Source: Alphaproteobacteria bacterium 16-39-46 (lineage in GTDB: Bacteria; Pseudomonadota; Alphaproteobacteria; 16-39-46). From it: a stretch of 51,526 bases of DNA. The notes beneath the pieces were generated by a model that saw only the letters and a list, made by a program, of their open reading frames with translations, ran no database searches and was not told the origin of the DNA. Positions 27,931 through 43,987 of this stretch are shown piece after piece. Position 1 is the first letter of the stretch. The number at the start of each line of letters is the position of its first letter. The stretch is taken from the NCBI GenBank assembly GCA_002257235.1, contig NCGZ01000007.1, forward strand, positions 1 to 51,526, given 5' to 3'. The translations under genes were made by a program, and so were the position numbers.

Positions 27931-29712
27931 ATGACAGAATTCCACAATAAGCCCTACACCATAAATATTGGCACAGACGATTTTAAAGAAATGGCAGCAG
28001 GCAATGACTTGTTTGTCGATAAGACGTCTTTTATTTCTACGCTTCTGGGGGGGGGGTATAAGGTGACTCTCATCACGCGTCCACGTCGGTGGGGCAAGAC
28101 TCTTAATATGACAATGCTTCAGTATTTTTTTTGCGTTCCCGTTAAAAGTAATGGAGATATCGATGAGGAAGAGCAATCAAAAAGGCGGGATATTTTCTCA
28201 AAATTAAAGATTGGGGAGCATCTCGATATCTTAGAAAATTATCTTGGAAAATTTCCGGTGATTTTTGTGTCCTTTAAAGAAATTAAAGGAAATGTCTATG
28301 AGGCAACCGAAATGGATGTCCGAGAGCTTATTTATGGGCTTTATGAGACGCATGAATATCTTCTTTATAGTGATAAGCTTTCAGAGTGGCAAAAAGATCT
28401 TTTTAAAAAATTTATGACAAAATCGTTTGATCTTGCTGAATTAAAAAATAGCCTTTTCCATCTCAGCAAGATGCTCTATGCGCATTTTGGTCAAAAGGTT
28501 TTTATCTTGATCGATGAATATGATACCCCGTTGAATGATTGGTACGCCCTTCAATTGGCACGCGAGACTCTTTCCTCTGCAGAGGATACCTACTTTCAGA
28601 ATGTTTTAGGTCTTTTTAGAGGGATTTTCAGCAGCACTCTTAAAGGAAACGACTTCCTTGAAAAGGGCGTTGTGACAGGAATTTTGCGTGTTGCGAAAGC
28701 AAGTCTTTTCTCGGGGCTCAATAATTTTGGAGAGGATTCGATCTTAGATGACGATTATGCAGAACATTTTGGATTTACAGAGGGGGAAGTGAATACTTTG
28801 CTCCATAAATCCAACATAGACAAAAACCCAGAAACAGCTCTCGCTCTAAAATCTTGGTATAATGGATATAATATTGGCGGTCTTACGATCTACAACCCCT
28901 GGTCCATTATGAACTGTATTCAAAATCGGGGGAAGTTTAAAGCCTATTGGGTTGGAACGGCGAGCACAGCTCTTATCGAACAGGCCCTTGTTCTTGATAA
29001 GTTTCAGGAAGAAATGCAGACTCTTATTGAAGGGGGAAGTGTTGATATGATTGCGGATCCTAAAATGATTTTTGCAGATATTAAATCATCTCCCAATGCG
29101 CTTTATAATCTCTTACTCTTTTCGGGCTATTTAACGGCGATAAAAGCAAAGCTCGCGATGGATGGGATAACCTATCTCTGCAGTGTCAAAATCCCCAACT
29201 ATGAAGTTCGAGGGGTCTTTATGACGTCGCTTGTTCAGTGGATTGAAAACAAGTTTAAAACAGACGCGCGCGGGTATAGAGCCTTTGTGACGGATCTCCT
29301 TTCAGGCGACGTTCTAAAATTTATAGAAACCCTTAAATCTTACCTCGAAGTTTCAGCAAGCTATTTTGATTCAGGAAAATATGCGGAACTTTTATATAAT
29401 GGATTTATGTGGGGTCTTTTTGCAAGTAGCGTGAACGAGGATTACTTTGTTGAAAAGGAACGTGAAACCGGATCCGGGCGTGCCGATCTTCTCATTATTC
29501 CGAAAGAAACAGCACCTTTCCCGTTTGCTCTTATTTTAGAGTATAAAATTGCAAACAAAACAGAAGATTTACAAACGGTTGCGCAATCTGCGCTCGATCA
29601 AATAGAGTCAAAAGAGTATTCTTCTAAAATTAAGGCGTATAAAAACGTCGAAAAAATTATCCGTGTTGGCCTTGCGTTCTCAGGGAAAGATGTTGCGGTG
29701 GCTTTTAATTAA
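27931..29712 (+). CDS. AAA-ATPase-like plus PD-(D/E)XK nuclease (PDDEXK_9 type), paralog 2
   Basis: TRPRRWGKT, ILIDEYD, ERETGSGRADL...LEYK; collinear with 11211..12989. Confidence 0.9.
   Translation: MTEFHNKPYTINIGTDDFKEMAAGNDLFVDKTSFISTLLGGGYKVTLITRPRRWGKTLNMTMLQYFFCVPVKSNGDIDEEEQSKRRDIFSKLKIGEHLDILENYLGKFPVIFVSFKEIKGNVYEATEMDVRELIYGLYETHEYLLYSDKLSEWQKDLFKKFMTKSFDLAELKNSLFHLSKMLYAHFGQKVFILIDEYDTPLNDWYALQLARETLSSAEDTYFQNVLGLFRGIFSSTLKGNDFLEKGVVTGILRVAKASLFSGLNNFGEDSILDDDYAEHFGFTEGEVNTLLHKSNIDKNPETALALKSWYNGYNIGGLTIYNPWSIMNCIQNRGKFKAYWVGTASTALIEQALVLDKFQEEMQTLIEGGSVDMIADPKMIFADIKSSPNALYNLLLFSGYLTAIKAKLAMDGITYLCSVKIPNYEVRGVFMTSLVQWIENKFKTDARGYRAFVTDLLSGDVLKFIETLKSYLEVSASYFDSGKYAELLYNGFMWGLFASSVNEDYFVEKERETGSGRADLLIIPKETAPFPFALILEYKIANKTEDLQTVAQSALDQIESKEYSSKIKAYKNVEKIIRVGLAFSGKDVAVAFN
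28047..28056 (+). repeat. G10 homopolymer in the 5' coding region of the ATPase-nuclease
   Basis: cttctGGGGGGGGGGtataag. Confidence 0.9.
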
Positions 29713-34303: not shown

Positions 34304-35821
34304 CTAGATTCTTCTCAAAAGTAAATGAAAGGAAGGGAGAATGTCACTATAATCAATCTTATTGAGGATGTTTTTTTTATCATCGTTTTCTGGGTTGTTG
34401 TATTTTTCATTTTGACTGTCAATAATATCTCTAACATGTGTATCAAAATATTCGATGAGCAATTGTTTATCGTAAGTGAGAGGGCTTGTGAGGAGATGAT
34501 CAAAGTTTTTCGCCCATAAAGAAGGGGGAAAAGAGGGGACAAAGCGCCATTCGCTCGTTTCGTTATGATCGAGCAAAGTATGGCTTGGAACATGTGTTAC
34601 GGTTGCGGGTACACGAAAATGAAGATTTTTTTTACTGGGAAAAGAAAGCAGTTGAGTTCCACCATCTTTTGAACTTCTTTCTGCGATGAAAGAGTGTCGA
34701 TCATCGTGAGGGTTTTCAATATTAAATTCATTTATAGCGCAGACATGACAGTGAGGCATTTCTAATTGTGCTTCTTTAAAACTTCTTAATATCTCTTCTA
34801 TAAGAAAAGAAATGCCACTTCCTGTATAAATAACGTCAACAAAATGAAGAGATTTTAGATTTTTGTTTTCTGGCGTGAGTCCAGCTTGCCTTAGCCGGGT
34901 TCTTAAGTGATCTAATCGCTCAGGGGTAATGCAATTTCTACTATCTTTAAGAGTTGGTTTTCCCGAAAAAGGAAAGAAAATAATATTCCGAAGGTCGTCA
35001 GGTTCGCTGGATTGTAGGATCATTTGAACAGCACGTCCAAGAAGGTAAACTGTATTGCCTATAAAAATCAAGGAGTCTCCTTTTTGACTGACGTGTAGAA
35101 TTTTTTGGGCGCCTAGATAAAGATTTTGAATCAAGTTATGGTCCAAAAAACCATACGATTGTGAGAGAAAAAACTGTCGACGTCTTTCAGAGTTCGATGG
35201 AATCTCCCCTTTGAAGTAAGTGGAAGAAAAAAAATGATAAAAGAGATGATCTGAGGGCAGTGTGCCTTCTCGAAACTTTTCAATTTCTTTTTGATATTTT
35301 TGACCATATAGGGGATGCTCGGAAAGATCTTCAATAGCGTCTCTCGGGCGCAAAAAGAGATCTCTTGGAGAGCATTTTTTATAAATTCTATTTAAGATCT
35401 CTTTTTGGTGTGAAGAGGGAGCCGCTAACATGAGTTCAAGATGTTCCATCCATACAGGAATTTCATCACGAAATTGCATTGGTATTCCGAAATAGTCTTC
35501 TGTAAAGAACCGAGAGGCAACAGAGTCTGCTTTTGGCTGTCCTAATTTTTCAACGAGATAATCATAAAAATAGTGTTTTGCTTCTTTAGGGCTGACCAAA
35601 AGCTTCTGAGAGAGGAAGGGGGGTCCATTGAGACTATCAATGAGGGTACCCAAGTGATCTCTGAGAACTTGATTTTCTCTGGGGTTCAAAGACCTTGTAT
35701 TAGGTGTTTCGGAGAGGTCTATAATCTCAACGGGAGGAAGGGCTTCTAAAACAGACGATAATTGACTGAAAAATAATGTTAAAAGAATAAAAGTGACGTA
35801 TTTAATTTGTTTGAAGGGCAT
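34304..35821 (-). CDS. Exported hypothetical protein with a PRTase-like motif
   Basis: Signal-peptide-like N-terminus; LHFVDVIYTGSGI resembles the PRPP-binding loop. ATG 35821 has GAGG upstream. Confidence 0.55.
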   Translation of the reverse strand: MPFKQIKYVTFILLTLFFSQLSSVLEALPPVEIIDLSETPNTRSLNPRENQVLRDHLGTLIDSLNGPPFLSQKLLVSPKEAKHYFYDYLVEKLGQPKADSVASRFFTEDYFGIPMQFRDEIPVWMEHLELMLAAPSSHQKEILNRIYKKCSPRDLFLRPRDAIEDLSEHPLYGQKYQKEIEKFREGTLPSDHLFYHFFSSTYFKGEIPSNSERRRQFFLSQSYGFLDHNLIQNLYLGAQKILHVSQKGDSLIFIGNTVYLLGRAVQMILQSSEPDDLRNIIFFPFSGKPTLKDSRNCITPERLDHLRTRLRQAGLTPENKNLKSLHFVDVIYTGSGISFLIEEILRSFKEAQLEMPHCHVCAINEFNIENPHDDRHSFIAERSSKDGGTQLLSFPSKKNLHFRVPATVTHVPSHTLLDHNETSEWRFVPSFPPSLWAKNFDHLLTSPLTYDKQLLIEYFDTHVRDIIDSQNEKYNNPENDDKKNILNKIDYSDILPSFHLLLRRI

Positions 35822-35951
35822 TTTTGACCTCAAAAATGAAAACCGATATGTAAATATAAATATATATAAGAACTCTTAAATTTGAAAACAAGAGTTTTGG
35901 ACAAAATAAAGCAGGAATAACGGTATTTTTTTATTCTCAAAATTAGGAAAT

Positions 35952-36106
35952 GTCGATTATGTGACGCGTTTTGAGGTCTATTTTCTCCTCACATAATTAA
36001 CAAAAGTCGATTATGTGAAGAGTTTTGAGGTCTATTTTCTCCTCACATAATTAACAAAAGTCGATTATGTGAAGAGTTTTAAGTGGCGTTTTCTATTCAT
36101 ATGAGG
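35952..36106. repeat. 54-bp tandem repeat (2 near-identical units plus 1 degenerate), each with an internal inverted repeat
   Basis: Units start at 35952, 36006 and 36060; ATTATGTGA...TCACATAAT palindrome in each. Confidence 0.95.
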
Positions 36107-36147
36107 TAGACTTGATGAAAGTATGCAGAAAGGAGGATAATATCTCA

Positions 36148-37587
36148 ATGTCAATATTTGTTGGAAGGAAAAGGGAACTTGAACGACTGAAGGTACTTTT
36201 TTCCAAAAAATTTGCGAGTTTAGCCGTTATAAAAGGGCGCAGACGAATTGGTAAAAGCCGATTGGTAGAGGAGTTCGCAAAAGGAAAAAAGTTTTTTGTT
36301 TTTTCAGGAATTCCACCTACGGATGGGATTTCAGCACAATCTCAAAGAGATGTTTTTGCACGTCAACTCGGAAATCAAATTGGATTACCCAGTATTCAAT
36401 CTCAAGATTGGTCAGATCTTTTTACATTACTCGCACGCTATACAAATCAAGAACGTGTGGTGGTCTTATTTGATGAGATATCATGGATGGGATCCAAGGA
36501 CCCTACATTTCTTGGAAAACTGAAGAATGCATGGGATTTAGAATTTCAAAAAAATCCAAAGTTTGTATTGGTTTTTTGTGGATCTGTATCAACTTGGATT
36601 GAACAAAATATTATCAGTAGTACAGCTTTTTTTGGGAGGATCTCCCTTTATTTAACATTAAAAGAGCTGCCCTTGGATGAATGTAATGAGCTTTTAGATG
36701 TTCAGGGGTTCCGTGGATCCACTTATGAAAAATTTAAAATATTATCCGTAACAGGGGGGATCCCTTGGTATCTGCAACAAATTCAATCCAATCTCACAGC
36801 GGACGATAATATTAAAAATTTATGTTTCAATAAAGATGGGATCCTTTTTAATGAGTTTAATCTAATTTTTCATGACATATTTGAAAAAAGAAGTGAGATT
36901 TATAGGCCCATTGTGGATGTTTTAGCCAATGGTCCACGAGAATATAATCAAATAATCCATGAGTTAAAATATTCGAAAAGCGGGACTTTAAGCTCTTATC
37001 TTGAGGATCTTATTCAATCGGGGTTTGTACAGCGTGATTACACTTGGAATCTTAAGGCAGGAAAATCTTCTCGATTAAGCCATTTTCGCCTCAGTGATAA
37101 TTATTTAAGATTTTATCTTAAATTTATTTGGCCTAATAACGTTAAAATTCTGCAAGATAGTTTTAAAGATGTTACTCTATCGTCGTTGCCGGGTTGGAAG
37201 ACGATTTTAGGACTTCAATTTGAAAATTTGGTTTTGAATAATCGAAAAAAAATATGGGAAAATCTCCAGATAAGACCTGAAAATATTGAGTCTAACAATC
37301 CTTTTTTTCAAAGAAAGACAGAGAGAACACATGGTTGCCAAATTGATTATCTTGTTCAAACTCAATTTAACACTTTGTTTGCGTGTGAGGTTAAGTTTTC
37401 TCAAACGGATATAAAATCAGAAATTATTCAAGAGATGAAGGATAAGCTTGCACGCCTTATGCTCCCTCGAGGATTTTCTTGTTTCCCTGTTCTTATTCAC
37501 GTGAATGGCGTCAATGAGCATGTCGTAGATCAAGGGTATTTTACAGAACTTATTGACTTTTCAGAGTTTTTAGATAAAAAATCATGA
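36148..37587 (+). CDS. Archaeal-type ATPase (ATPase_2/AAA) plus wHTH plus DUF234-like PD-(D/E)XK domain
   Basis: FVGRKREL, GRRRIGKS, LFDEISW, TGGIPWYL, C-terminal QIDYL...CEVKF. AGGAGG RBS favours ATG 36148. Confidence 0.85.
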   Translation: MSIFVGRKRELERLKVLFSKKFASLAVIKGRRRIGKSRLVEEFAKGKKFFVFSGIPPTDGISAQSQRDVFARQLGNQIGLPSIQSQDWSDLFTLLARYTNQERVVVLFDEISWMGSKDPTFLGKLKNAWDLEFQKNPKFVLVFCGSVSTWIEQNIISSTAFFGRISLYLTLKELPLDECNELLDVQGFRGSTYEKFKILSVTGGIPWYLQQIQSNLTADDNIKNLCFNKDGILFNEFNLIFHDIFEKRSEIYRPIVDVLANGPREYNQIIHELKYSKSGTLSSYLEDLIQSGFVQRDYTWNLKAGKSSRLSHFRLSDNYLRFYLKFIWPNNVKILQDSFKDVTLSSLPGWKTILGLQFENLVLNNRKKIWENLQIRPENIESNNPFFQRKTERTHGCQIDYLVQTQFNTLFACEVKFSQTDIKSEIIQEMKDKLARLMLPRGFSCFPVLIHVNGVNEHVVDQGYFTELIDFSEFLDKKS

Positions 37588-37599
37588 AGATATTTGTAT

Positions 37600-37689
37600 C
37601 GGAGTCTCTTAAACAAATGGACTCCGACTCAATTATGATCTCTCATAACTGAGTCGCGACTAATTTATGATGGCATCATAACTGGGTCG
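37600..37689. repeat. Three abutting hairpins; two are related CGAC-TTATGA/TCATAA-GTCG palindromes
   Basis: 37600-37626, 37625-37656 and 37657-37689. Confidence 0.85.
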
Positions 37690-37758
37690 AATGCGTGCGA
37701 GATTATTATTTAACAATTTGAAATATTTGGAAAAAATGGCGTAGATTTACGAGAAAAT

Positions 37759-38697
37759 CTACTTTTTCGTATGCTTTAGAAGATAAATGCCACTGAAAAT
37801 GATAATAGAGCTCCCTAAGATCAGAGAGAAGGATGGAAGTCTGTTCCAAATCATATCATCAAACAGCAAAGACCAGAGAAGTTGCGTATAGATGAGCGGC
37901 GCTAAAACAGCGGGGCTTGTTTGCCGAAAGGCCAATGCGAGAAAACTTTGACCCAAGGCTCCAAAAATCCCAAGACCGAGAATATCCCAGATATGGTCTT
38001 GACCAAGAGGGACCCATGTTTCAAAGGGCGTAAAGAGAAGCCCTCCGAGTGTTGAAAACAAGGCATAATAAAATAAGATGGTGAGCATTCTATCTTTTTT
38101 AACGATCGTGCGGAATGAGAGAAGAACGATGGCATCAAAGGTAACAGCAAGCAGACACGCGAGAGAAGCTTTGATGTGAAACGTAAAAGGGGTTGTAAAG
38201 GGCGCCGTTATGATTAAAACGCCAATAAAACCAATCGTAATGGCAATCCAATTTTTAAACTTAATGTGTTCTTTAAAAACGAAAAGAGAGAGAAGGGTGA
38301 TGATAAACGTCTCCGAAAAACTGATCGCTGTTGCATCAGAAAGGGGCATGATCTCAAAGGCATAAAACAAGAAATAAAGACAAAATGCTGAAAATATACC
38401 TTGAAATCCATGGATTTTAAGATGAGGCGTTGAAAAGACGGAAGAGAGATTCTTTGAGGAGAGGATTAAAATATAAAGGGTGAGGGGGATGAGAAAAATA
38501 AGCCCTCTTAAAATCACCATTTCTCCCAAGGGATAATATTCAGAAGAGGTTTTAATAAAAACATTTGCAATAGAATAGGCAAGAACACCGAGAAGAAAAT
38601 AAAAAGCTCCTTTTAAAGGATGAGATTTCTTTTGGGGGTTGCCTTCTGGGAGAGGGATATATTCAACGACGGTAAAATTATCTCCAGCCTCTGTCAT
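37759..38697 (-). CDS. DMT/EamA family transporter
   Basis: About 10 TM segments; PL..AT.ISF, E.I....WIAI.IGF.GVLII, APL.YTQL.W. Confidence 0.88.
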   Translation of the reverse strand: MTEAGDNFTVVEYIPLPEGNPQKKSHPLKGAFYFLLGVLAYSIANVFIKTSSEYYPLGEMVILRGLIFLIPLTLYILILSSKNLSSVFSTPHLKIHGFQGIFSAFCLYFLFYAFEIMPLSDATAISFSETFIITLLSLFVFKEHIKFKNWIAITIGFIGVLIITAPFTTPFTFHIKASLACLLAVTFDAIVLLSFRTIVKKDRMLTILFYYALFSTLGGLLFTPFETWVPLGQDHIWDILGLGIFGALGQSFLALAFRQTSPAVLAPLIYTQLLWSLLFDDMIWNRLPSFSLILGSSIIIFSGIYLLKHTKK

Positions 38698-43476: not shown

Positions 43477-43580
43477 GCCTAAAACGAAAGCCTAAAACGA
43501 AAGCCTAAAACGAAAGCCTAAAACGAAAGCCTAAAACGAAAGCCTAAAATGAAAGCCTAAAATGAAAGCCTAAAATGAAA
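43477..43580 (+). repeat. 13-bp VNTR x8 (GCCTAAAA[C/T]GAAA)
   Basis: 5 C-type units followed by 3 T-type units, between the iscS stop and the iscU RBS. Confidence 0.97.
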
Positions 43581-43594
43581 GAAGGAGACGAGAT

Positions 43595-43987
43595 ATGTCA
43601 TACAGTAAGCAACTTATAGATCATTATGAAAACCCCCGAAATGTTGGATCACTCGATCCAAAGGATATGAATGTGGGAACTGGGCTTGTCGGTGCGCCCG
43701 CGTGCGGGGATGTGATGAAACTTCAAATTCGCGTGACAGATGACGGGGTTATTGCGGATGCAAAATTCAAAACCTTTGGATGTGGGTCGGCCATTGCATC
43801 AAGTTCTTATGTCACTGAACTCTTGTGTGGTATGACACTGACGGAGGCAACAAGCATTAAAAATAATGCCATTGCACAGCATTTAGCACTTCCTCCAGTT
43901 AAGATTCATTGTTCCGTTTTGGCGGAAGATGCGATTAAAGCGGCCATTCAAGACTATCAAAATAAACAAGTTGAGAGTCAAAGATAA
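43595..43987 (+). CDS. iscU: Fe-S scaffold IscU
   Basis: DHYENPRNVG, GAPACGDVM, KTFGCGSAIASSS, LPPVKIHCS. Confidence 0.97.
   Translation: MSYSKQLIDHYENPRNVGSLDPKDMNVGTGLVGAPACGDVMKLQIRVTDDGVIADAKFKTFGCGSAIASSSYVTELLCGMTLTEATSIKNNAIAQHLALPPVKIHCSVLAEDAIKAAIQDYQNKQVESQR

What the first reader, a model, noticed from the sequence alone, without database searches (positions are those of the whole stretch)
35952..37689. ATPase-wHTH-nuclease gene bracketed by a 54-bp hairpin array upstream and stacked palindromes downstream
Seen: three 54-bp-period units end just before the RBS, each with an ATTATGTGA/TCACATAAT inverted repeat. Immediately after the stop are three abutting hairpins. Two of them are related palindromes (CGACTCAATTATGA-tctc-TCATAACTGAGTCG and CGACTAATTTATGA-tggca-TCATAACTGGGTCG) that share the TTATG/CATAA core and a GTCG end with the upstream array. 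Inference: these are cognate binding sites for the protein's winged helix (autoregulation with copy-number tuning), or the ends of an uncharacterised selfish or defence cassette built on an ATPase-nuclease. It is not a CRISPR array because there are no unique spacers.
Basis: partly seen in the sequence, partly recalled or inferred. Interest (0 to 1): 0.7.

Follow-up and report, generated by a model that had tools for sequence, protein, structure and literature searches.

The report
Phased operator array before ATPase-nuclease gene
The 54-bp repeats in front of this ATPase-nuclease gene are lineage-specific palindromes, spaced 54 bp apart, that occur before most of its relatives and probably let the protein control its own gene. 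The hairpins behind the gene are the leftover control region of a different ATPase-nuclease gene that has been deleted.

Summary

**Upstream.** The 54-bp array (35941-36111) is best read as two 38-bp palindromes, TCACATAAT-TAAC-AAAA-GTCG-ATTATGTGA, with decayed half-sites on both sides. In 56 of 77 homologous loci (50-71% aa identity; Chlamydiota, Holosporales-like, Legionellales, Thiotrichales and others) the best upstream repeat period is 53-56 bp. Control regions give 2 of 74 and 2 of 66. The period also appears in homologues at 28-45% identity, including Wolbachia phage WO. Arm sequences differ between lineages and between paralogues in one genome. Within a locus, arms are 90% conserved and spacers 55%. 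The array is therefore most likely the cognate operator of the encoded protein, a STAND/Orc-like ATPase with a winged helix and a PD-(D/E)xK nuclease (PADLOC candidate PDC-S27). Binding itself is inferred, not shown.

**Downstream.** The two palindromes (37625-37689) match the region just upstream of AAA_14/DUF4143 (PDC-S01) genes elsewhere. In the window they are followed by a roughly 20-codon stub. They are the orphaned control region of a deleted neighbour gene, not a cassette end.

The "bracketing" idea and the shared-core idea are not supported.

The parts
35952..35968 (.). Distal lone right half-site (GTCGATTATGTGACGCG). Its left partner (about 35931-35947) has decayed.
   Evidence: alignment with L001 and L085
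35985..36022 (.). Palindrome P1: CTCCTCACATAATTAAC-AAAA-GTCGATTATGTGAAGAG. Dyad at -144.5 from the ATG.
   Evidence: inverted repeat I20; the half-site is in register with the family pattern ARM-AAAT-CGACA
36023..36038 (.). 16-bp spacer TTTTGAGGTCTATTTT between the palindromes. This is where close relatives differ.
36039..36076 (.). Palindrome P2, identical to P1. Dyad at -90.5 from the ATG.
   Evidence: inverted repeat I21
36093..36111 (.). Decayed left half-site of a third, promoter-proximal palindrome (CTATTCATATGAGGTAGAC). The expected dyad is at -36.5.
   Evidence: it keeps the 54-bp phase
36112..36141 (+). Promoter-like site TTGATG-18-GATAAT, ending 6 nt before the ATG. The geometry is that of a leaderless transcript. 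It overlaps AAGGAGG at 36130-36136.
   Evidence: same geometry as L052, L055, L056, L062, L070, L071, L074 and L080
36148..37587 (+). Gene for a 479-aa protein: P-loop STAND/Orc-like ATPase (1-245), winged helix (about 249-316) and C-terminal PD-(D/E)xK nuclease (E359, D400, E414-x-K416).
37600..37626 (.). Hairpin 1 (CGGAGTC-N13-GACTCCG). It is not conserved in relatives that are 93% identical. Its right arm aligns with the TTGACT -35-like hexamer of intact PDC-S01 genes.
37625..37689 (+). Two abutting 32/33-bp palindromes (CGACTNANTTATGA-N4-5-TCATAACTGRGTCG). They are the orphaned upstream control region of a deleted AAA_14/DUF4143 (PDC-S01) gene.
37682..37744 (+). 5' stub of the deleted PDC-S01 gene, reading LGRMRARLLFNNLKYLEKMA*. 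The original ATG now reads CTG. It is colinear with the first ~20 codons of L157 and L213.
37731..37767 (.). Bidirectional intrinsic terminator (GTAGATTT-ACGAGA-AAATCTAC with T-runs on both strands). It serves the convergent EamA gene and, on the + strand, the ATPase gene.

Best explanation
**Upstream array.** It is a set of cognate DNA sites for the encoded ATPase-winged-helix-nuclease. Each 38-bp palindrome is bound by two winged-helix domains. The variable arm would be read in the major groove and the adjacent A-tract by the wing. Palindromes repeat every 54 bp, about five helical turns, so bound dimers lie on one face of the DNA and can join through the oligomerising ATPase domain. Because the array runs into the core promoter, occupancy sets the gene's own transcription. 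Repression is the more likely direction. Each lineage and each paralogue has its own arm sequence, so co-resident copies do not cross-talk.

**Downstream palindromes.** They are not part of this unit. They are the orphaned control region and first ~20 codons of a neighbouring AAA_14/DUF4143 (PDC-S01) ATPase-nuclease gene that was deleted. That family has its own control-region layout: two abutting 32-bp palindromes, the second covering the start codon.

**Shown versus inferred.** Shown: the conservation, phasing and lineage specificity of the sites; the homology of the downstream element; the protein's domain make-up. Inferred: that the protein itself binds the sites; the direction of regulation; the oligomeric assembly.
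For: **Family-wide phasing**
- The best direct-repeat period upstream is 53-56 bp in 56 of 77 homologous loci, against 2 of 74 downstream controls and 2 of 66 far-upstream controls.
- All 27 strong cases (at least 20 of 24 matches) have period 53-55; no control reaches that score.
- At least 3 exact 8-mer half-sites in both orientations occur in 40 of 77 upstream regions, against 2 of 75 and 1 of 81 controls.

**Selection on the sites**
- The arms differ between lineages, but the layout is constant: ARM, A-tract, centre, T-tract, ARM'.
- Between successive units of one locus, arms are 90% identical, A-tracts 85%, centres 59% and spacers 55%. Selection therefore acts on the half-sites and their spacing.
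- Among relatives about 93% identical in DNA, the core palindrome is invariant and substitutions fall in the spacer, the outer arm positions or the decayed third unit.

**Private specificity**
- Co-resident paralogues have different arms. In KR126_chlam_5 they are TTGTTCGC, TTACTTCAAA, CCTGCTCAAAA and ATATCATAAAA.
- No second gene is conserved next to the family, so the only factor that travels with the sites is the encoded protein.

**Reach of the feature**
- The phasing persists in distant homologues: a Desulfosarcina plasmid (45% identity, period 54), L224 (33%, period 54), Wolbachia phage WO (28%, period 56) and IMG/VR contigs (period 54).

**DNA-level rather than RNA-level role**
- Arm mismatches show no G-T excess over A-C (66 against 63).
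- Promoter-like sites lie within or just downstream of the array.

**Protein**
- PADLOC PDC-S27, E = 4.7e-84 over the full length.
- AlphaFold2 mean pLDDT 88. The nearest structures are PABY2304, NLR resistosomes and Orc1/Cdc6, including DNA-bound forms.
- The winged helix is the most divergent domain: mean pairwise distance 0.59, against 0.44 for the ATPase.

**Downstream element**
- Window 37625-37673 is 41 of 49 identical to L157 1614-1662, which ends 10 nt before the ATG of an AAA_14+DUF4143 gene.
- L213 and L212 show the same layout and arms.
- The MAFFT alignment is colinear through the first ~20 codons.
- The syntenic relative L083 has an intact PDC-S01 gene at this position and in this orientation.
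Against: - There is no binding data.
- The winged helix is an integral part of STAND and Orc modules, and in STAND proteins it does not bind DNA.
- Mantel and mutual-information tests linking the winged helix to arm sequence were no stronger than for other domains, because phylogeny dominates.
- In the window the promoter-proximal palindrome is decayed and the two intact palindromes lie at -90 and -144. The direction of regulation is therefore open.
- Only 14 of 30 loci with both features called show a full palindrome over the -35 to -10 span.
- Promoter calls are consensus matches only. A good Shine-Dalgarno sequence conflicts with the leaderless reading.
- For the downstream element, only three clearly homologous loci were found.
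- The stub's protein similarity is weak (5 of 20 identities).
- The palindromes are better preserved in the window than a dead relic need be, so they may still be bound by a PDC-S01 protein encoded elsewhere in the genome.
Confidence: 0.65

Rival explanations
1. The phased array is mainly an assembly platform rather than a transcriptional operator. An Orc1/Cdc6- or STAND-like oligomer nucleates on its private sites. This could park the nuclease in an inactive DNA-bound state, or act as an origin-like or partition-like site of a mobile element. Any effect on transcription would be secondary.
For: The fold is closest to Orc1/Cdc6, including DNA-bound complexes, and to oligomerising STAND ATPases. 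The strict 54-bp phasing and the 2-4 units suggest a higher-order complex. In the window the intact palindromes lie upstream of the promoter. The family occurs on plasmids, in prophage-like contigs and at a variable hotspot.
Against: The array always abuts the gene's own start and often overlaps promoter-like hexamers. There is no GC-skew inflection or conserved AT-rich unwinding element next to it. The gene occurs as a lone chromosomal gene between housekeeping genes in many genomes.
Confidence: 0.17
2. The palindromes act as RNA or single-strand hairpins, for example 5'-UTR structures, attenuators or processing sites, rather than as double-stranded protein-binding sites.
For: Arms change between lineages while staying complementary. 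Some units are near-perfect long hairpins, for example in L055 and L071.
Against: There is no strand-asymmetric G-T tolerance: 66 G-T against 63 A-C mismatches. Both dyads of the 54-bp unit are symmetric. The best promoter-like sites lie downstream of most units, so those units would not be transcribed. Rfam finds nothing. A fixed 54-bp spacing with unconstrained spacers is not expected for independent hairpins.
Confidence: 0.05
3. The sites are bound by another factor (a host regulator or a nucleoid protein), or are non-functional tandem duplications that merely tolerate copy-number change.
For: Copy number differs among near-identical relatives. The window's units are 94% identical, as expected after a recent duplication.
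Against: Arms are private to each paralogue in one genome, which a shared host factor cannot explain. Arms are conserved while spacers are not. The phasing is conserved down to about 28-33% protein identity. No second conserved gene accompanies the family.
Confidence: 0.06
4. One reading: the upstream array and the downstream palindromes are the two ends of one selfish or defence cassette.
For: Homology with close relatives stops about 25 nt upstream of the array. The gene sits in a variable segment between EamA and PmbA that is empty in L084.
Against: Downstream synteny continues through the palindromes at 93% identity. Homologues have no downstream palindromes. The downstream element matches the upstream region of another gene family. 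The motif similarity between the two flanks is at chance level.
Confidence: 0.03

Closest known systems
PADLOC phage-defence candidate PDC-S27 (single-gene ATPase + PD-(D/E)xK)
   Same: Full-length HMM match at E = 4.7e-84. Same domain make-up as described in PMC12988326.
   Different: No cis-element is described for PDC-S27 in the papers found. Anti-phage activity is unproven: one representative gave no protection against T4, T5 or T7 in E. coli B (bioRxiv 10.1101/2024.09.26.614923). This subfamily is concentrated in intracellular and symbiotic bacteria.
Archaeal-type ATPase_2 proteins (Pfam PF01637; PABY2304, PDB 2QEN)
   Same: Pfam ATPase_2 at 50.8 bits against a cut-off of 33.2. It is the best structural match, at E = 8.6e-11.
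   Different: 2QEN lacks the C-terminal nuclease. No sequence-level PDB relative was found with the family profile.
Orc1/Cdc6 initiators with ORB repeats at archaeal origins
   Same: An AAA+ domain plus winged-helix fold, and repeated inverted sites next to the protein's own gene.
   Different: There is no origin signature here (no skew switch). The protein has an added nuclease domain. The sites are phased at 54 bp and run into the promoter.
STAND transcription factors that bind arrays of sites, such as MalT (from my own knowledge, not tested here)
   Same: An oligomerising P-loop NTPase whose DNA-binding domain would read several phased sites in a promoter.
   Different: MalT uses a C-terminal LuxR-type HTH and regulates other operons. 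Here the winged helix lies inside the NTPase module, the only visible target is the gene itself, and the effector is a nuclease.
Dedicated winged-helix repressors of defence systems, such as BrxR/CapW-type regulators (from my own knowledge)
   Same: Palindromic operators in front of defence or defence-candidate genes.
   Different: Those regulators are separate small proteins. Here the presumed DNA-binding domain is part of the effector, and the operators are multi-copy and phased.
PDC-S01 (AAA_14 + DUF4143) genes, for the downstream element
   Same: Window 37625-37744 matches the upstream region and first codons of L157, L213 and L212. Those proteins match PDC-S01 at E = 6e-51.
   Different: In the window the gene body is gone. 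Only the control region and a ~20-codon stub remain.

Membership tests
PADLOC PDC-S27 | Full-length match to the PDC-S27 profile | tested here: met
   PDLC04984, E = 4.7e-84, residues 1-456 of 479
PADLOC PDC-S27 | P-loop ATPase fused to a PD-(D/E)xK nuclease | tested here: met
   Walker A GRRRIGKS (30-37) and Walker B LFDE (107-110). E359, D400 and E414-x-K416 are invariant in 28 homologues. The model shows the alpha-beta-beta-beta-alpha-beta order in 350-451.
PADLOC PDC-S27 | Protects against phage | not testable with these tools
   One PDC-S27 representative gave no protection against T4, T5 or T7. Nothing is known for this subfamily.
Pfam ATPase_2 (PF01637) | Score above the gathering threshold | tested here: met
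   50.8 bits against 33.2
Pfam DUF234 (PF03008) | Match of the C-terminal domain to the DUF234 profile | tested here: not met
   No hit at E<=10 on residues 340-479. Only DUF4143 appears, at E = 0.05 and below its cut-off. A WO-phage homologue at 28% identity is annotated as DUF234-fused.
Autoregulatory operator of a DNA-binding protein | Sites are conserved next to the gene across homologues and specific to each lineage | tested here: met
Autoregulatory operator of a DNA-binding protein | Sites overlap the core promoter | tested here: inconclusive
   14 of 30 loci show overlap. In the window only a decayed half-site abuts the -35.
Autoregulatory operator of a DNA-binding protein | The encoded protein binds the sites | not testable with these tools
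   Covariation tests were inconclusive.
Orc1/Cdc6-ORB replication origin | Origin signature (skew switch, AT-rich unwinding element) beside the repeats | tested here: not met
   Cumulative GC skew rises steadily through 36 kb.
CRISPR array | Identical repeats separated by unique spacers of similar length | tested here: not met
   Only 2.6 units, and the 16-bp 'spacers' are copies of each other.
Dispersed REP/MITE-type palindromes | Many copies scattered through the genome | tested here: not met
   Neither motif occurs elsewhere in the 51.5-kb window.
Intrinsic terminator (for the three downstream hairpins) | GC-rich stem followed directly by a U-run | tested here: not met
   No T-run follows any of the three hairpins on either strand. 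A canonical bidirectional terminator lies separately at 37741-37767.
PDC-S01 (AAA_14/DUF4143) upstream control region (for the downstream palindromes) | Sequence homology and same layout as the region before intact PDC-S01 genes | tested here: met
   41 of 49 identity to L157. The same arms occur in L213 and L212. The alignment is colinear into the coding region.

The most novel reading that the evidence does not exclude
PDC-S27-like, and perhaps PDC-S01-like, ATPase-nucleases may be sequence-specific DNA-docking machines. Each copy would carry a private address, a 54-bp-phased palindrome array, on which an Orc/STAND-like oligomer assembles. That would couple self-recognition, expression control and the licensing of the nuclease. 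The orthogonal arms of co-resident paralogues would then form a readable protein-DNA recognition code for a widespread but functionally unknown class of 'defence candidates' in intracellular bacteria and their prophages.
Probability: 0.15. Interest if true: 0.8.

Novelty: new variant of a known kind. Interest (0 to 1): 0.6.

Why it matters
PDC-S27 and PDC-S01 are among the most frequent "candidate defence" genes in archaea and bacteria (PMC12988326), yet no mechanism or regulation is known for them. One tested representative of each did not protect E. coli.

This analysis gives a concrete handle. Each gene would come with its own DNA ligand, which can be read from the sequence. Binding, oligomerisation on DNA, autoregulation and nuclease control then become directly testable, and paralogue pairs offer natural specificity swaps.

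It also warns annotators that palindrome stacks in such hotspots can be the orphaned control regions of lost genes.

Tried and rejected
1. **Shared core between the flanks.** The longest shared word is 7 nt, with p of about 0.10 in composition-matched random palindromes. Rejected.
2. **Covariation of the winged helix with arm sequence.** In the partial Mantel test the winged helix gave r = 0.14 (p = 0.016), but the ATPase and linker domains gave similar values. Per-column mutual information was not enriched in the recognition helix or wing. With 46 loci, phylogeny dominates. Inconclusive.
3. **RNA-hairpin reading.** No wobble asymmetry and no Rfam match.
4. **Downstream hairpins as terminators.** No U-runs follow them, and a separate bidirectional terminator exists.
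5. **Dispersed-repeat reading.** The 14-mer metagenome scan returned essentially single chance hits, apart from L157.
6. **Empty-site comparison at nucleotide level.** L083 and L084 are too diverged for exact insertion boundaries to be read. Only gene order is informative.
7. **Sigma-54 or enhancer-binding-protein reading.** I saw no GG-N10-GC promoter on inspection.
8. **The other ATPase-nuclease gene in the window (27931-29712).** It has no upstream array.
9. **A viral-contig scan for PDC-S01 relatives.** It found nothing.
10. **A PDB sequence search with the family profile.** It found nothing.
Full report
**1. What is in the sequence**

The gene runs from the ATG at 36148 to the stop at 37587 on the + strand and encodes 479 aa. 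Tandem Repeats Finder reports one strong array just upstream: 35941-36080, period 54, 2.6 copies, 94% matches, score 245. It also reports a period-32 pair at 37625-37689 just downstream.

The half-site GTCGATTATGTGA and its near-complement occur five times, all within 35952-36072 and nowhere else in the 51.5-kb window. Shuffles give 0.78 expected matches, and 0 of 100 shuffles reach five. The downstream arm motif is likewise confined to 37625-37689.

**2. The protein**

- Pfam gives ATPase_2 (50.8 bits against a cut-off of 33.2) and a weak ArsR-type HTH at residues 255-295.
- PADLOC gives a full-length match to the phage-defence candidate PDC-S27 at E = 4.7e-84.
- Walker A (GRRRIGKS), Walker B (LFDE) and a nuclease triad with its helix glutamate (E359, D400, E414-x-K416) are invariant in 28 homologues.
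- The AlphaFold2 model (mean pLDDT 88, pTM 0.86) shows an ATPase, a winged helix (helices 249-290, beta-hairpin wing 294-315) and a C-terminal alpha-beta-beta-beta-alpha-beta domain.
- The nearest solved structures are the Pyrococcus ATPase PABY2304, plant NLR resistosomes and Orc1/Cdc6 initiators, including DNA-bound forms.
- Pfam DUF234 is not matched, even at E<=10.
- In the literature PDC-S27 is an unvalidated candidate described as an ATPase fused to PD-(D/E)xK (PMC12988326). One representative gave no protection against T4, T5 or T7 (bioRxiv 10.1101/2024.09.26.614923).

**3. The upstream array is a hallmark of the family**

I fetched 80 loci encoding homologues at 50-71% identity from species-representative genomes. 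They come from Chlamydiota, Caedibacter and other Alphaproteobacteria, Legionellales, Thiotrichales, Coxiella, Bdellovibrionota and Verrucomicrobia. Nearly all carry 2-3 palindromic units directly before the gene.

| Test | Upstream of the gene | Controls |
|---|---|---|
| At least 3 exact 8-mer half-sites in both orientations | 40 of 77 | 2 of 75 (downstream), 1 of 81 (inside the gene) |
| Best direct-repeat period (20-100 tested) falls in 53-56 bp | 56 of 77 | 2 of 74 (downstream), 2 of 66 (700 nt further upstream) |
| Strong periodic match, at least 20 of 24 | 27 of 77, all at period 53-55 | 0 of 74 |

- **Layout.** It is constant: a variable arm of 6-10 nt, an A-tract, a centre that is often close to CGACA..TGTCG, a T-tract, and the complementary arm. 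A spacer of about 16-20 bp follows.
- **The window.** Its unit fits this pattern when read as TCACATAAT-TAAC-AAAA-GTCG-ATTATGTGA, that is P1 at 35985-36022 and P2 at 36039-36076. The nearest arm relative is L013 (CTTCACATAATCGACA).
- **Distant homologues.** The phasing persists on a Desulfosarcina plasmid (45% identity, period 54), in L224 (33%, period 54), in Wolbachia phage WO (28%, two palindromes, period 56) and in six IMG/VR contigs (period 54).
- **Family size.** It comprises 5800 clusters at 50% identity with E<=1e-3.

**4. Evidence for selection and for private specificity**

- Between successive units of one locus, arms are 90% identical and A-tracts 85%, while centres are 59% and spacers 55%. 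In most lineages the repeat is therefore not a fresh duplication. The half-sites and their spacing are what is maintained.
- Among three relatives about 93% identical in DNA to the window, the core palindrome is invariant. Differences fall in the spacer, the outer arm positions or the decayed third unit.
- Unit number varies among these relatives: two palindromes in L001 and L002, three in L085, and two plus flanking relics in the window.
- Paralogues that share a genome always have different arms. Four different arms occur in Anoxychlamydiales KR126_chlam_5, and pairs differ in six other genomes assembled from metagenomes.
- No other gene is conserved beside the family. The simplest factor that can co-vary with the sites is the encoded protein, whose winged helix is its most divergent domain (distance 0.59 against 0.44 for the ATPase).
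- Direct covariation tests were inconclusive.

**5. DNA or RNA, and the link to the promoter**

- Arm mismatches show no excess of G-T over A-C (66 against 63), so there is no RNA-wobble signature. Rfam finds nothing.
- Promoter-like sites fall into two geometric classes. In one, the -10 ends 20-36 nt before the ATG. In the other it ends 6-7 nt before the ATG, which implies a leaderless transcript.
- The window's TTGATG-18-GATAAT-6-ATG (36112-36141) has exactly the second geometry, shared with L052, L055, L056, L062, L070, L071, L074 and L080.
- A full palindrome overlaps the -35 to -10 span in 14 of 30 loci where both could be called. In the rest, including the window, full palindromes lie just upstream and a half-site abuts or enters the promoter.
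- Autoregulation is therefore well motivated, but its direction is not settled. The AAGGAGG at 36130-36136 leaves the leaderless reading open.

**6. The downstream hairpins belong to another gene**

- Homologues have no conserved palindromes after the stop. The similarity between the two flanks is at chance level.
- A metagenome scan for the 14-mer arm gave mostly chance hits. One, L157, carries the whole structure: CGACTCAGTTATGA-CTCA-TCATAAATAAGTCG followed directly by CGACTATTTTATGA. It is 41 of 49 identical to window 37625-37673 and ends 10 nt before the ATG of a 407-aa ORF.
- That ORF is AAA_14+DUF4143, which is PADLOC PDC-S01.
- Its homologues L213 and L212 show the same layout with the same or similar arms, and L211 and L214 show looser versions.
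- The alignment is colinear from a TTGACT hexamer through both palindromes into the first ~20 codons. In intact genes the right arm of the second palindrome is the ATG-AGA-CGG start itself. In the window that ATG reads CTG, and the frame (LGRMRARLLFNNLKYLEKMA*) stops at 37744, inside the EamA terminator.
- The relatives L001 and L085 keep only one decayed palindrome.
- The syntenic relative L083 has an intact PDC-S01 gene at exactly this place and in this orientation. L084 has neither ATPase gene.
- A canonical bidirectional terminator lies at 37741-37767, so the three hairpins are not needed for termination.

**7. Context**

The segment between the EamA pair and PmbA/UbiA is variable.
- In the window it holds a 593-aa AAA-ATPase_like+PDDEXK_9 gene, an SLT-domain gene, an MFS transporter, a 509-aa ORF without matches, the ATPase_2 gene and the PDC-S01 stub.
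- In L084 the same segment holds only an 82-aa ORF.
- The locus is thus a hotspot that collects three unrelated ATPase-PD-(D/E)xK gene types.
- Homology to the closest relatives ends about 25 nt upstream of the array. It continues downstream, so gene plus both flanks is not a discrete cassette.

**8. Verdict**

- The idea that the downstream palindromes are related sites or a cassette end is not supported.
- I found no description of these phased arrays in the literature searched.
- I rate the finding as a new variant of a known kind, namely an operator array for autoregulation. It is attached to a widespread ATPase-nuclease family of unknown function.

Noticed in passing
window 27931-29712 (+): A third type of ATPase-nuclease gene (593 aa; Pfam AAA-ATPase_like PF09820 + PDDEXK_9 PF08011) lies in the same variable segment, right after PmbA. 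It has no PADLOC match and no repeat or palindrome array in its 330-nt upstream region.
   Followed up: partly
window about 27.9-37.7 kb; loci L083, L084: The segment between PmbA/UbiA and the two EamA genes is a variable hotspot. L084 has only an 82-aa ORF there. L083 has an intact PDC-S01 (AAA_14+DUF4143) gene. The window has five genes plus a gene stub.
   Followed up: partly
L157 1614-1672; L213; L212: In PDC-S01 (AAA_14/DUF4143) genes, two abutting 32-bp palindromes sit at the start of the gene. The start codon and the conserved Met-Arg-Arg codons form the right arm of the second palindrome. This looks like a second family with private control sites, in a different layout.
   Followed up: partly
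window 43477-43581: A perfect-looking 13-bp tandem repeat (GCCTAAAACGAAA, 8.1 copies, 98% matches) fills the gap between the second cysteine-desulfurase-like gene and the NifU/IscU-like gene (ATG at 43595). In relative L085 the corresponding gap is only about 55 nt.
   Followed up: no
window 37731-37767: A bidirectional intrinsic terminator (8-bp stem, T-runs on both strands) overlaps the EamA stop codon. The consensus scan missed it because the stem has few G-C pairs.
   Followed up: partly
window 34304-35833 (-): A 509-aa ORF divergent from the ATPase gene has no Pfam or PADLOC match. It is absent from the upstream flank of the close relatives L001, L002 and L085. All three of those contigs break 200-300 nt upstream of the array, in a shared G+C-richer sequence, which suggests a repeated element there.
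   Followed up: no
L033, L046, L051, L054 (first 160 nt after the homologue's stop): In a few homologous loci, copies of the same kind of palindrome (arm, AAAT, GACA...) also occur downstream of the gene. They may belong to a following paralogue or be extra sites.
   Followed up: no
L224 2770-3410; L211; L213; L214: Neighbours of distant ATPase_2 and PDC-S01 homologues include a PhdYeFM-PIN toxin-antitoxin pair, Fic genes, conjugation genes (TraG/VirD4, TraE, TraL, MobA), an integrase and a transposase. These genes therefore often sit on or beside mobile elements.
   Followed up: no
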